Virus record (IMG/VR): IMGVR_UViG_2802429224_000008
Span: 1 to 12,738 of that record
Reading direction: 5' to 3' (one strand)
Length of the DNA: 12,738 bases
From: a virus
Taxonomy: Duplodnaviria > Heunggongvirae > Uroviricota > Caudoviricetes
Of the stretch, positions 6,001-9,000 are shown in pieces. Made by a program: the position numbers. Numbering within the stretch: position 1 is the stretch's first letter; the number at the start of each line of letters is the position of its first letter.

Positions 6001-9000
6001 AGCATGTTTTTTACGTGCTGATGTTCCAGCCTGAAAGCGAAGAAGATTAATTTTTTCTCGCGTGTAGGGTGAAAATTTTGCGGGTTATGCGGGTTATTTC
6101 TGTGGATAAATCAGTATCCATATGATTATTAAAGGAATGACAGGAAAATCGTAACCCGCAAAATACCCAAAATAACCCGCAAAACGGCAGTTATAACCCG
6201 CAAAAGTGCGATTATAACCCGCAGAATTTCACAGTAAGGGTGTAAACAAGCGTAACTATCAACGTTAAAACCGGAGAGCAGACAGCATGACAGCACAGAT
6301 AGCGGCTTACGGGCGGCTGGTGGCTGACCCGCAGTTAAAGACCACCAGCAAGGGGACACAAATGGCGATGGCGAGTATGGCGGTTCCCCTGCCGTGCAGC
6401 CAGGCAGATGACGGAACGGCGACGATGTGGTTATCCGTCCTGGCGTTTGGCAGACAGGCCGACGCACTGGCAAAGCACCAGAAAGGCGAACTGGTGAGCG
6501 TGGCGGGTAACATGCAGGTAAGCCAGTGGACAGGTCAGAACGGCGAAACGCGGCAGGGCTGGCAGGTTATCGCAGACAGCGTAATCAGTGCGCGGACGGC
6601 GCGACCGGGCGGCAAAAAAGGCCAGCAGGGCCAGGCTACTGACGCACTGAACAGGGCGAAACAACAGACAGGCCAGCACGATGACCCGTACGGGGATAAC
6701 ATACCGTTTTAATTCACAGCAGCGAACAGAGTAATTACAGGGGAAGGCATGACAAAGCTGACCATTAACCGAAAACCGAAAGGCATTTACGGCACGCCGC
6801 AGAAAACGACGCAGGCGGCACAGCAGCAGGATAAAACCACGTCGGCGCATAAAGTGATGCCCGATAATCAGAACGCACAGCAGAGCCGCAAACAGAAGCC
6901 CACTGGGGTGACACCGTGGCGGCATATGACCAAACGCCAGCGCAAAAACCGCAGACGCGTTAACCGCCTCACTGAGTTGTGGCCTGACTTATTCAGCCGG
7001 GAAGCACCGAAGCCGCTTAAGGTGGGGATATTCGACGACCTGATGCAGGATCTCGCCGTCAGGGGGCTGGCATTCGGGCCAGGGGCATTACGTGCGACGC
7101 TGGCATCTTATGCGCAGTCTCCGCGCTATTACCGCGCCTTAATGGCTGGTGGTGCACGTTACGACCTGAAAGGCCAGCCATGTGGAGATGTGACACCACA
7201 GGAACAACAGGACGCAGAAACGCGGCTGATGATGCTGAATGAGAAGCGCAAGCATCAGGCGGCAAAGGAGAAGACAGGCGCATGATTCGTGACAGCAAAG
7301 CGGAAGAACTGGAGACTAAAGGCCTGTACCGGAGAGCGGCGGCGCGGTGGGCTGAGGTCATGCAGCTGGTGAACACCGATAAGGAGCGCGAACAGGTGGC
7401 AAAGTGTCGCGCGGAATGCATCCGTAAGGCAGCACGCCCACCTGTTATGGCGGATAACTTCGGGGCACTGAAAGAGGCTGTAAACCGCACTCATGCGGTG
7501 ATGGGGATGGAAGACGCGGGTAAATCCGTCTGGCGGAACTACCCGAAGCAGCCTGGCAGTAACCAGTGATGCCGGATATTATCCTGAAAAATGACCATCA
7601 CTCCCGTGGGCGGATAATATAAAATCCCGCATATGCGCACATACACAGACGAAGCCGGAACACTCCGGCTTTTTTTACGGGTCCTCCTGATGGGGTACCC
7701 TTACCGCGGGGCGACGGACGCGCGGGAATCGCCAAATTTTCGCATTTTTATCGGTCATCACCACCAGCGCAATTTATTGATAATGAAGGTTAAAAAAATT
7801 CCTGGTGTCGAAAACGCCTGTTTTTTGTTCATCACTGAATCATGCGCATCATGATACCAGGATACCCGGTATTGCTGCGTGATAACCCACAGGGCTGGTG
7901 ACGATGCGTTATGGTCTGTGCGTTGCCATCCTCCTGACCTGATGGCATTATCCGGCATGAACGAGCGGTTATTCTCCGTACTCTTAATCGTTGTTCATGG
8001 TTATTTGCTTTGTGGTAGCTGACATTTCCTGATGGCTTTTATCCTTCCGCCCCGTAATCACGGGGTATTTTTTTATCTGTGATTTGTTGTTCTTCGCTGT
8101 GTTGGTATGGGGAGTTCTGGCAATGATTCAGGCCGTCGCTTTCCTGGTACGTGATTTTTTACGTTCATTATTGTGCTGGTGGTAGTGTCACGGCACGTCA
8201 CGATATGTCACTATCACGTCACGCTGATGGCAAAAGCCAGGGTTAACCAGTACCGGAACGGGTAGCCCGATGTATTGTTACCGTCCTGCCGGCTGGTGGA
8301 GTAATTGATAACGGTTATCATCAACGGGAGGGGAGGATCAAATCCCTGTAGTCCTGGCCGTCCGGGACCGCCCGCCAACCCTTCTTCGCATCGCCGCAGG
8401 TTCGAAAACTTTTTTTGGGAAGGTGCGCACAGAGTTGATAGATAAAACCTATCAGAAGAAGTAGCATCAAACCCGCGCCATTGCTGGCATCGTTAAAAAA
8501 ACTCACTCCACCAGCAGGCCAAAAAACCGTGATTTTTCCGGTTTTATGGGCTGAAAAGGGTCTCCCTAAAAAACACCTCTCACACTGTCGGAGGGGATGG
8601 ATAATTTTCACGGGTCCTTTCCGGAGGTCTGAATACCGGGGGTACGGGTACGCGCAATTCTCAACTGTTTATGAAAATTTTTCGGGAAAAGTCAGATCCG
8701 TTCTTCTTCTCTGTAACTCATTGTTTAATCGTAAAATCATCAAAAAAAGAAAGGATCTGACAGTGGTCATTCTGGGCTAAAAATGACGTTATCAGATCCT
8801 TTCTCAGTTTTGTTCAATAATTGCGCGGCTGTCACTCACCTTTCTGTTGCCGTAATTTCTCCGGCACGTTTCCGGTTGTTTCCATCAGGTAGTCCTTCAG
8901 AATGCGGGGCAGGTTATCGGCAGTTTTAGCGCACGCATTACAGACGCGTGCTGTTTCTTTCCTCAGGCCCTCGATCATTGCCGGAGTCATCGCGGGGAAC

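What the first reader, a model, noticed from the sequence alone, without database searches (positions are those of the whole stretch)
6287..7569. SSB - ProQ/FinO-domain - PerC-like gene set immediately downstream of the origin
The island encodes its own SSB with an intact ...DNIPF tail, a FinO-domain RNA chaperone homologous to the ProQ N-terminal domain, and a PerC-like regulator, the last two overlapping by ATGA. A FinO-domain protein co-transcribed with replication functions suggests RNA-based control (antisense or sRNA), and PerC-family proteins are known to activate host virulence regulons, so the island may reprogram host RNA regulation and transcription.
Basis: partly seen in the sequence, partly recalled or inferred. 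Interest (0 to 1): 0.5.

Follow-up and report, generated by a model that had tools for sequence, protein, structure and literature searches.

The report
Phage-satellite SSB, FinO-like and PerC genes
The three genes are real and correctly identified, but they form the ordinary end of the replication operon of a known kind of Escherichia phage satellite (a PICI); only the FinO-type RNA-binding protein has not been studied functionally.

Summary
Observation confirmed. ORFs 6287-6712, 6749-7285 and 7282-7569 encode an SSB (Pfam 3.8e-16, tail ...GDNIPF), a FinO/ProQ-domain protein (1.5e-23; FinO fold confirmed by modelling) and a PerC-family protein (4.7e-35). The last two overlap by ATGA. They start 60 bp after six iterons.

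The window is an Escherichia phage-inducible chromosomal island (PICI): int, alpA, icd-like, DUF4222, DUF927 rep, ori, this trio, terminator, cos-like site, accessory genes.

In 158 related loci the position after rep/ori is variable. It holds SSB, FinO-like and PerC in different combinations, behind four unrelated Rep families, in both PICIs and capsid-forming PICIs.

SSB plus a PerC homologue (PchE) was described for O157 O-island 51 in 2011. PICI PerC genes were noted in 2018. The exact proteins are already in NCBI with these names.

The host-reprogramming idea is only partly supported. As reported in PMC11773190, tested PICI PerC homologues either have no effect on LEE1 or repress it. I found no RNA partner for the FinO-like protein: Rfam, antisense folding, terminator comparison and a FinO+/FinO- association scan were all negative.

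Most likely it is a terminator-hairpin-binding chaperone acting on satellite or helper transcripts after induction. Its ligand is unknown. New member of a known kind; interest about 0.3.

The parts
3927..6050 (+). Replication initiator (DUF927 primase/helicase type); the upstream gene of the same presumed operon
   Evidence: Pfam PF06048 E 1.1e-45. A weak match to the SCCmec Cch1 replicative helicase. Preceded by a DUF4222 gene at 3616-3930, as in all related PICIs.
6076..6226 (.). Replication origin: 2 inverted and 4 direct iterons (AACCCGCARAA, 21-bp spacing) around an AT-rich spacer
   Evidence: 6 matches, all here; 0 of 200 shuffles reach 6; GC 0.30-0.32 at 6100-6174.
6287..6712 (+). Satellite single-stranded-DNA-binding protein, 141 aa, C-terminal tip GDNIPF
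   Evidence: Pfam PF00436 3.8e-16; TIGR00621 above its cut-off; PHROG 44. Matches solved SSBs. Tail conserved in about 95 of 104 relatives. DNA matches in 1662 of 5426 complete E. coli genomes, mostly to the ssb part only.
6749..7285 (+). FinO/ProQ-domain RNA chaperone, 178 aa: disordered basic, Q/T-rich N-terminal extension (about residues 1-60) plus FinO domain (about 62-176); no ProQ-type C-terminal domain
   Evidence: Pfam PF04352 1.5e-23. Below the NCBIfam FinO and ProQ cut-offs. AlphaFold model pLDDT 87-96 over residues 61-170, with residues 1-5 and 11-49 below 50. Foldseek matches RocC, FinO and NMB1681, target-normalised TM-score up to 0.84. Equivalents of ProQ R58, R69, Y70, R80 and D82 are present as R115, R126, Y127, R137 and D139.
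7282..7569 (+). PerC-family small regulator, 95 aa, PchE-like; start overlaps the finO stop (ATGA)
7652..7678 (+). Intrinsic terminator (AAGCCGGA-ACAC-TCCGGCTT followed by a T-run) ending the operon
   Evidence: Fold of 7560-7685: -35.5 kcal/mol, z -2.8. Conserved in relatives, and in a FinO-less O157 island.
7679..7780 (+). cos-like packaging site marking the start of the next module
   Evidence: Aligns with the sequence upstream of terS in the O157 island, which contains ...GGGGCGGCGACCTCGCGG.... I recognise that as the lambda cohesive-end sequence from memory; I did not check it against a lambda record. Also matches the end of the phage mEp460 record. An inverted second copy lies at 11137-11238.

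Best explanation
The three genes are the distal end of the early (replication) operon of an Escherichia phage-inducible chromosomal island.

Shown: gene identities, their order after rep and ori, the ATGA overlap, the terminator and cos-like site that close the module, and the recurrence of the same arrangement in many PICIs and capsid-forming PICIs.

Inferred:
(a) The operon is transcribed from the alpA side after helper-phage induction.
(b) The SSB coats satellite ssDNA and uses its ...IPF tip to recruit host replisome and repair partners for the satellite's own Rep.
(c) The FinO-like protein binds RNAs by the family's shape-readout mode (a Rho-independent terminator hairpin plus a 3'-OH U-tail). 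It stabilises them or promotes their pairing, acting on satellite and/or helper-phage transcripts made during induction. Its basic, disordered N-terminal extension would play the duplexing role that FinO's N-terminus plays.
(d) PerC translation is coupled to finO translation. PerC acts as a small helical-repeat co-regulator through protein contacts, not as a classical DNA-binding activator.

The position between ori and cos is a shuffling hotspot. The trio is therefore a frequent combination, not an obligate unit.
For: Domain and fold evidence.

PICI context: int, AlpA, icd-like, DUF4222, Rep, iterons, Nu1-like TerS, cos-like site. Relatives are inserted at tRNA-Pro/yejM or in yifB.

Position conserved: in 78 of 81 FinO+ loci with adequate flanks, finO follows a Rep gene in the same orientation. 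SSB lies upstream in 37 and PerC is fused by ATGA in 52.

The same position in FinO-less PICIs holds SSB-PerC or SSB-capsid.

The scan lists no + strand terminator-like site between 1680 and 7722, and folding shows a strong terminator at 7652-7678.

RNA-binding residues are conserved across 19 diverse family members.

The family's terminator/3'-OH recognition mode is described in PMC9977716.

Literature on PICI PerC and SSB: PMC3378721, PMC6092414, PMC11773190.
Against: No RNA ligand was identified. Expression timing and co-transcription are inferred from sequence only.

The FinO allele (about 90% identical) is found with PerC alleles of 57-60% or 95-99% identity. In four loci the order is SSB-PerC-FinO. 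Any FinO-PerC functional coupling is therefore not allele-specific.

The PerC TPR-like assignment rests on a medium-confidence model (pLDDT 75) and generic helical matches.

PICIs without finO are common, so the protein is dispensable for the basic satellite life cycle.
Confidence: 0.6

Rival explanations
1. Host reprogramming. The FinO-like chaperone and PerC are lysogenic-conversion cargo, expressed in the uninduced island. They rewire host sRNA networks and virulence transcription such as LEE.
For: Deleting O-island 51, a related PICI that carries ssb and PchE, lowers LEE expression and colonisation (PMC3378721). The EcCIMP1 PerC-like protein strongly alters LEE1 expression when expressed in C. 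rodentium (PMC11773190). FinO and FopA occasionally bind chromosomal RNAs (PMC9977716). The island carries a second PerC paralogue and a fimbrial subunit gene.
Against: The O-island-51 effect was mapped to RgdR, not to PchE. PICI PerC homologues were reported to have no effect on LEE1, and the EcCIMP1 homologue represses it. The genes sit inside the replication operon with no predicted promoter of their own, apart from a weak 9/12 match inside the ori. The module is equally common in islands of commensal and non-LEE Escherichia.
Confidence: 0.2
2. Replication control of the FopA/PcnR type. The FinO-like protein, with or without a cis-antisense RNA, represses translation of the satellite's rep mRNA to limit replication.
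For: Its closest mobile-element relatives do this for IncI1 and IncI2 plasmids (PMC9977716). The gene always lies next to rep/ori. In SSB-less islands the finO ribosome-binding site directly abuts the iterons.
Against: finO is combined with four unrelated Rep families and with different iterons. No antisense promoter/terminator pair or conserved hairpin was found at the DUF4222-rep leader. No upstream tile is convincingly associated with finO. After induction a satellite gains from run-away replication, not from limited replication (inference).
Confidence: 0.12
3. Helper-directed RNA interference or exploitation. The chaperone binds helper-phage RNAs with terminator hairpins, such as antisense or early/late leader RNAs, to shift helper gene expression in the satellite's favour.
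For: It is presumably made only when the helper induces the operon. It occurs across PICIs and capsid-forming PICIs that use different packaging strategies, as expected for a function aimed at a common helper type. ProQ is known to bind phage- and prophage-derived RNAs (PMC9977716). An sRNA acting across a satellite and its phage has been reported for the Vibrio cholerae PLE satellite (bioRxiv 10.1101/2022.04.08.487710, abstract).
Against: No direct evidence. The helper is unknown. No helper sequence was available to test.
Confidence: 0.15

Closest known systems
FinO of F-like plasmids (PDB 1dvo)
   Same: Single FinO domain preceded by a disordered basic N-terminal extension, with no ProQ-type C-terminal domain. 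Encoded on a mobile element. phmmer E 5.6e-11; the NCBIfam FinO model is the best-scoring named model at 64 bits.
   Different: Scores far below the FinO cut-off of 136 bits. No FinP-like antisense RNA or traJ-like target was found. It lies in a satellite replication operon, not a conjugation operon.
FopA (IncI1) and PcnR (IncI2) plasmid FinO-domain proteins
   Same: Mobile-element FinO-domain proteins encoded near replication functions; specialised regulators, not global ones (PMC9977716). About 35-43% identity to plasmid FinO-family genes over the domain.
   Different: Here the protein is not tied to one replication system: four Rep families are found upstream. No Inc-like antisense RNA or repR-like leader hairpin was detected.
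ProQ N-terminal domain (PDB 5nb9) and RocC (PDB 7rgu)
   Same: Same fold. Residues equivalent to ProQ K35, R58, R69, Y70, R80 and D82 are conserved, and R32 is replaced by lysine.
   Different: No linker or Tudor-like C-terminal domain. Equivalents of K54 and R62 are not conserved (P111, A119). Carried on an island and patchily distributed, not a core gene.
PchE, the PerC homologue of E. coli O157 O-island 51 (CP-933C), together with that island's SSB
   Same: The same position after rep/ori in a PICI. 63% identical PerC and 69% identical SSB. The island was described with 'ssDNA' and 'PerC (PchE)' genes in PMC3378721.
   Different: The O157 island has no finO between ssb and perC. It has a RepA-type helicase and a capsid module.
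EcCIMP1_025, the PerC-like protein of PICI EcCIMP1
   Same: A PICI-borne PerC-family protein, and the only such homologue with a clear experimental phenotype (PMC11773190).
   Different: It represses LEE1. Its sequence relation to this PerC was not measured here; the paper gives about 40% identity to other PICI PerCs. Its authors suspect an ANR-like anti-activator mechanism. Here only the window's second PerC weakly touches the ANR model (18.5 bits against a cut-off of 32).

Membership tests
Bacterial SSB (PF00436 / TIGR00621) | OB-fold ssDNA-binding domain matching the family profile above the curated cut-off | tested here: met
   PF00436 59.5 bits (cut-off 26); TIGR00621 62.1 bits (cut-off 53.95). 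Matches solved SSBs.
Bacterial SSB (PF00436 / TIGR00621) | Acidic C-terminal tip ending in IPF that docks partner proteins | tested here: met
   The protein ends DDPYGDNIPF. PYGD[NGD]IPF is found in about 95 of 104 relatives. It is less acidic than the host DDDIPF, which I recall from memory.
Bacterial SSB (PF00436 / TIGR00621) | Binds ssDNA as a homotetramer | not testable with these tools
   Needs biochemistry.
FinO/ProQ family (PF04352) | FinO domain profile match above the gathering score | tested here: met
   83.2 bits (cut-off 27), residues 68-172 covering profile positions 5-108 of 109.
FinO/ProQ family (PF04352) | FinO fold | tested here: met
   AlphaFold model with pLDDT 87-96 across the domain. 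Foldseek probability 1.00 to NMB1681, RocC, FinO and a Legionella ProQ homologue; target-normalised TM-score 0.62-0.84.
FinO/ProQ family (PF04352) | Conserved basic and aromatic residues of the RNA 3'-end pocket | tested here: met
   R115, R126, Y127, R137 and D139 align with ProQ R58, R69, Y70, R80 and D82. Y127, R137 and D139 are invariant and R115 nearly invariant in 19 family members. That these residues are functionally important is from my own knowledge of ProQ mutagenesis, plus the general account in PMC9977716.
FinO/ProQ family (PF04352) | Binds terminator hairpins with a free 3'-OH tail | not testable with these tools
   Needs EMSA or CLIP.
FinO proper (NCBIfam NF010317) and ProQ proper (NF003434) | Score above the subfamily or equivalog cut-off; for ProQ, also the C-terminal Tudor-like domain | tested here: not met
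   64.3 bits against 136, and 56.5 bits against 127. The protein ends just after the FinO domain. It is therefore a distinct subfamily, neither FinO nor ProQ.
PerC family (PF06069) | Full-length profile match above the gathering score | tested here: met
   120.2 bits (cut-off 22.6), residues 1-89 covering profile positions 1-89 of 90.
PerC family (PF06069) | Activates the LEE1 (ler) promoter | not testable with these tools
   Needs a reporter assay. As reported in PMC11773190, PICI homologues either have no effect or repress.
ANR (AraC negative regulator) family, NF033650 | Profile match above the cut-off | tested here: not met
   PerC1: no hit. PerC2: 18.5 bits against a cut-off of 32, E 0.0014.
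Phage-inducible chromosomal island (Gram-negative type) | int, alpA, rep with adjacent iteron origin, about 10-15 kb, few or no structural genes, cos/terS packaging elements, specific chromosomal attachment site | tested here: met
   Relatives are inserted at tRNA-Pro next to yejM, or in yifB. The architecture matches O-island 51 and other islands.
Phage-inducible chromosomal island (Gram-negative type) | Induction, replication and packaging by a helper phage | not testable with these tools
   Needs experiment; the helper is unknown.

The most novel reading that the evidence does not exclude
The satellite FinO-like proteins would be a distinct clade of RNA chaperones dedicated to phage satellites. 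They have a conserved N-terminal motif, MTKLTINRKPKGIYG, a basic tract, and a position fixed between ori and cos, usually with translation coupled to a PerC-like TPR-type protein. They would act in trans on helper-phage or host transcripts. That would make RNA-chaperone-mediated control a new layer of satellite-helper-host conflict in enterobacteria.
Probability: 0.2. Interest if true: 0.65.

Novelty: new member of a known kind. Interest (0 to 1): 0.3.

Why it matters
If the FinO-like protein has a defined RNA ligand, it would be the first RNA chaperone assigned a role in an enterobacterial phage satellite. It would also be a simple system for studying how FinO-domain proteins choose their targets: a small protein, a 12-kb element, and an inducible operon.

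The survey also shows that PerC-family genes are routinely the last gene of PICI replication operons. That bears on how their reported effects on LEE virulence expression should be read.

As it stands, the gene set is ordinary for this class of element and is already named correctly in public annotation.

Tried and rejected
1. Rfam scans of the whole window and of 2650-3250: only sub-threshold chance hits, and no C4/CI-, FinP- or Inc-like RNA.

2. A FinP-like antisense RNA across the ssb/finO junction: the minus-strand hairpin plus T-run at 6643-6621 is not supported, since the fold of 6605-6760(-) has z 0.11. No minus-strand terminator-like site lies opposite the finO/perC junction.

3. The perC 3'UTR and terminator as a FinO-specific ligand: the terminator and the following sequence also occur in the FinO-less O157 island, and are short or different in the Citrobacter and E. 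ruysiae islands.

4. A candidate minus-strand sRNA at 2066->1990. It has the best promoter match in the window and a 12-bp terminator. But it is present at >=60% coverage in only 16 of the 94 loci held at that point, and is not enriched in FinO+ loci.

5. A tile-wise FinO+ (78) against FinO- (54) association over the whole window: only finO and perC themselves stand out. Weak signals at 2201-2350 and at one icd allele are probably lineage effects. The negative SSB signal is a sampling artefact, because the FinO- set was collected using SSB as the query.

6. A hairpin upstream of icd as a C4/CI-type RNA: it shows compensatory changes, but there is no Rfam support and icd-like genes also occur in the FinO-less islands, so no link to finO can be shown.

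7. The genome-contig scan with the single protein returned only one locus. Context came instead from viral contigs, encoding-contig look-ups and E. coli genomes.

8. I tried to identify RgdR in the window. ORF 11510-11824 is homologous to the last gene of the O157 island, but that protein lacks the RGD motif at residues 20-22 described in the paper, so I make no assignment.

9. Porter 2005 (PMC543544) is not held in the library. Its result is cited only second-hand, through PMC11773190.
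Full report
**1. Observation**

The window has three consecutive + strand ORFs exactly where stated: 6287-6712 (141 aa), 6749-7285 (178 aa) and 7282-7569 (95 aa).
- They match Pfam SSB (E 3.8e-16), ProQ/FinO (1.5e-23) and PerC (4.7e-35), each above the curated cut-off.
- NCBIfam agrees for SSB. It places the second protein between FinO (64 bits) and ProQ (56 bits), below both subfamily cut-offs.
- The finO stop and perC start share ATGA.
- The SSB ends ...DDPYGDNIPF.
- Upstream, AACCCGCARAA occurs six times, all within 6076-6226: four direct copies 21 bp apart and two inverted copies, around a stretch of 30-32% GC. 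None of 200 shuffles gave six matches.

**2. What the element is**

The window runs from an integrase start codon to the stop codon of a second PerC gene. In order it carries:
- int (1-1242) and alpA (1757-1963);
- leftward small genes including an Arc/YlcI-like one;
- an icd-like gene (about 2967-3170) and DUF4222 (3616-3930);
- a DUF927 replication protein (3927-6050) and the iteron origin;
- the trio, then a terminator (7652-7678) and a cos-like site (7679-7780);
- an accessory segment with a Nu1-type small terminase on the minus strand and a K88/F4 fimbrial subunit gene;
- a second PerC.

This is the architecture of Gram-negative phage-inducible chromosomal islands (PICIs).
- Close relatives (about 94% identity, mosaic) sit next to tRNA-Pro/yejM or inside yifB in E. 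coli chromosomes. PGAP annotates them there as 'single-stranded DNA-binding protein', 'ProQ/FINO family protein' and 'PerC family transcriptional regulator'.
- The exact FinO-like, PerC and Rep proteins are already in NCBI from E. coli and Escherichia sp. MOD1-EC5948.

**3. How general the arrangement is**

I collected 158 related loci from E. coli genomes, encoding-contig look-ups and two IMG/VR scans. I annotated them by tblastn with the window's proteins and with alternative module proteins.

Of 81 FinO+ loci with adequate flanks (not de-replicated):
- In 78, finO lies directly downstream of, and co-oriented with, a replication gene. Four unrelated kinds of Rep are involved: DUF927, RepA-type helicase, D5-type primase and a 'DNA primase family' protein.
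- SSB lies between ori and finO in 37.
- PerC is fused to the finO stop in 52. The junction is ATGA in 55 loci over the whole set, plus one GTGA.
- PerC lies nearby in 8, and upstream (order SSB-PerC-FinO) in 2 of these 81; four loci in all (L089-L092) show that order.
- PerC is absent in 19: 16 PICIs and 3 loci of a different kind of island.
- In the PICIs without PerC, an unrelated 82-aa or 138-aa ORF overlaps the finO stop. A capsid-protease-portal module may follow, so these are capsid-forming PICIs.

FinO-less PICIs carry SSB-PerC (for example the O157 island) or SSB followed directly by a capsid module.

FinO alleles about 90% identical to the window's are joined to PerC alleles of either 57-60% or 95-99% identity. 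Recombination therefore occurs at the junction.

The interval between ori and cos is thus a variable position. The SSB-FinO-PerC trio (12 loci in this sample) is one common combination, not an obligate unit.

**4. The three proteins**

*SSB.* It has an OB fold by profile and by matches to solved SSBs. The tail PYGD[NGD]IPF is conserved in about 95 of 104 relatives. Parts of the 1283-bp query match in 1662 of 5426 complete E. coli genomes, mostly the ssb part only. A 'ssDNA' gene conserved among O157, ED1a and CFT073 islands was already drawn in 2011 (PMC3378721).

*FinO-like protein.*
- The AlphaFold model has a confident FinO domain (pLDDT 87-96 over residues 61-170) and a disordered N-terminus.
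- Foldseek finds only FinO-family structures: NMB1681, RocC (including the RNA-bound form), FinO and a Legionella ProQ homologue.
- Residues aligned with ProQ K35, R58, R69, Y70, R80 and D82 are present, and R32 is replaced by lysine. Y127, R137 and D139 are invariant and R115 nearly invariant in 19 diverse homologues. K54 and R62 are not conserved.
- There is no C-terminal ProQ domain. The architecture is FinO-like: a basic extension (14 K+R against 2 D+E in the first 65 residues) followed by the domain.
- The first 15 residues (MTKLTINRKPKGIYG) and the KRQRKNRRR tract are conserved, while residues 16-50 vary.
- The family recognises a terminator hairpin with a 3'-OH tail, largely independent of sequence (PMC9977716).

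*PerC.*
- No solved relative exists.
- It is 63% identical to the O157 O-island-51 homologue, PchE.

**5. Search for an RNA partner**

All attempts were negative or inconclusive.
- Rfam gave nothing credible.
- The antisense strand of the ssb/finO junction folds no better than shuffles. No minus-strand terminator-like site lies opposite the finO/perC junction.
- The terminator after perC is shared with an island that lacks finO.
- A well-formed candidate minus-strand sRNA downstream of alpA (promoter 2095-2068, terminator 2022-1995) is present at >=60% coverage in only 16 loci and is not enriched in FinO+ loci.
- A tile-by-tile comparison of 78 FinO+ and 54 FinO- loci found only finO and perC themselves, plus weak signals that are probably lineage effects.
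- In SSB-less islands the finO ribosome-binding site directly abuts a different set of iterons.

**6. Mechanism**

The best-supported reading is that these are the last genes of the satellite's induced replication operon.
- The SSB serves satellite replication.
- The FinO-like protein is a specialised chaperone that binds terminator hairpins. It acts on satellite and/or helper transcripts during induction.
- PerC translation is coupled to finO translation, and PerC acts as a small co-regulator.

I put about 0.6 on this frame. I put about 0.9 on 'it is an RNA-binding FinO-domain protein'. I put much less on any particular ligand.

A FopA/PcnR-type replication control is disfavoured by the promiscuous pairing with four Rep families. 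Host reprogramming is possible but lacks support: the O-island-51 effect on LEE was mapped to RgdR, and PICI PerC homologues were reported as either inert on LEE1 or repressing it. A helper-directed role is attractive but untested.

**7. Comparison with what is known, and novelty**

PICIs with ssb and a PerC homologue are described in PMC3378721, PMC6092414 and PMC11773190. ProQ/FinO-like genes in PICIs or in episomal satellites have been noted only as annotation (PMC13612085, PMC13230959). I found no functional study in the library.

The protein is a member of the FinO/ProQ family but is neither FinO nor ProQ proper. I rate the finding a new member of a known kind, interest about 0.3. The one open and testable point is what the satellite FinO-like protein binds.

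Noticed in passing
window 7679-7780 and 11137-11238: Two cos-like sites in inverted orientation (102 nt, 79% complementary). They bracket a 3.4-kb segment that holds the Nu1-type terS (minus strand) and the fimbrial gene. The first copy directly follows the operon terminator. The sequence aligns with the region upstream of terS in an O157 island, which looks lambda-cos-like to me from memory, and it matches the end of the phage mEp460 record.
   Followed up: partly
window 8611-8686 and 9560-9635: A second inverted-repeat pair (76 nt, 84%) brackets terS itself (8832-9416, minus strand). terS is on the + strand in several close relatives (L018, L022, L041), on the minus strand in others (L002, L015), and deleted between the repeats in L001. 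This suggests inversion or deletion at these repeats.
   Followed up: partly
window 9964-10782: A lone K88/F4-family fimbrial subunit gene (Pfam PF02432, E 2.8e-51) sits in the satellite's accessory region, with no usher or chaperone genes in the window. This exact protein is not in the 15-billion-protein collection.
   Followed up: no
window 12436-12738 (second PerC) and 12021-12452 (minus strand): A second PerC paralogue lies at the right end of the island. It is 41% identical to the first and weakly touches the ANR anti-activator model (18.5 bits against a cut-off of 32). It is paired divergently with a conserved ORF of about 100-143 aa that has no family match. The same pair recurs in relatives (L001, L002, L015, L016, L022).
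   Followed up: partly
window 2895-2966, upstream of the icd-like gene (about 2967-3170): A hairpin whose stem shows compensatory changes between islands. It is followed by an almost invariant CUAACCACCAACGAUAGC...GUAUCGAGGUAGCUAUG that includes the icd ribosome-binding site. It is reminiscent of P1 C4 / P4 CI-type RNA control, but has no Rfam match.
   Followed up: partly
window 1990-2095, minus strand: Candidate small RNA of about 70 nt. Its promoter is the best match in the window (TAGTCA-16-TATAAT with an upstream TG) and it ends in a 12-bp GC-rich terminator. It would be antisense to any read-through transcript from alpA. It is present in only a subset of related islands.
   Followed up: partly
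FinO-like protein residues 1-15 and 55-70 (window 6749-6958): The extreme N-terminus (MTKLTINRKPKGIYG) and a TPW...KRQRKNRRR tract are conserved across homologues, while the stretch between them is variable and predicted to be disordered. This could be a docking motif plus an RNA-duplexing arm.
   Followed up: no
loci L089-L092; L029 and L057; L006-L010: Variants of the position after the origin. L089-L092 have the order SSB-PerC-FinO. In L029 and L057 (capsid-forming PICIs) finO is followed by an overlapping 82-aa ORF and then capsid, protease and portal genes. In L006-L010 a 138-aa ORF overlaps the finO stop and is followed by a short PerC-like fragment and three large unannotated genes.
   Followed up: partly
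loci L012-L014: A truncated (114 aa) close homologue of the FinO-like protein lies in a different kind of island, next to dndBCDE (DNA phosphorothioation) genes, an AlpA gene and H-NS-like genes.
   Followed up: no
window 11510-11824: A conserved ORF of about 94-104 aa (PHROG 1561, function unknown). It is present near the right end of most related PICIs, including the O157 island. It lacks the RGD motif at residues 20-22 described for RgdR, so its relation to RgdR is unresolved.
   Followed up: partly
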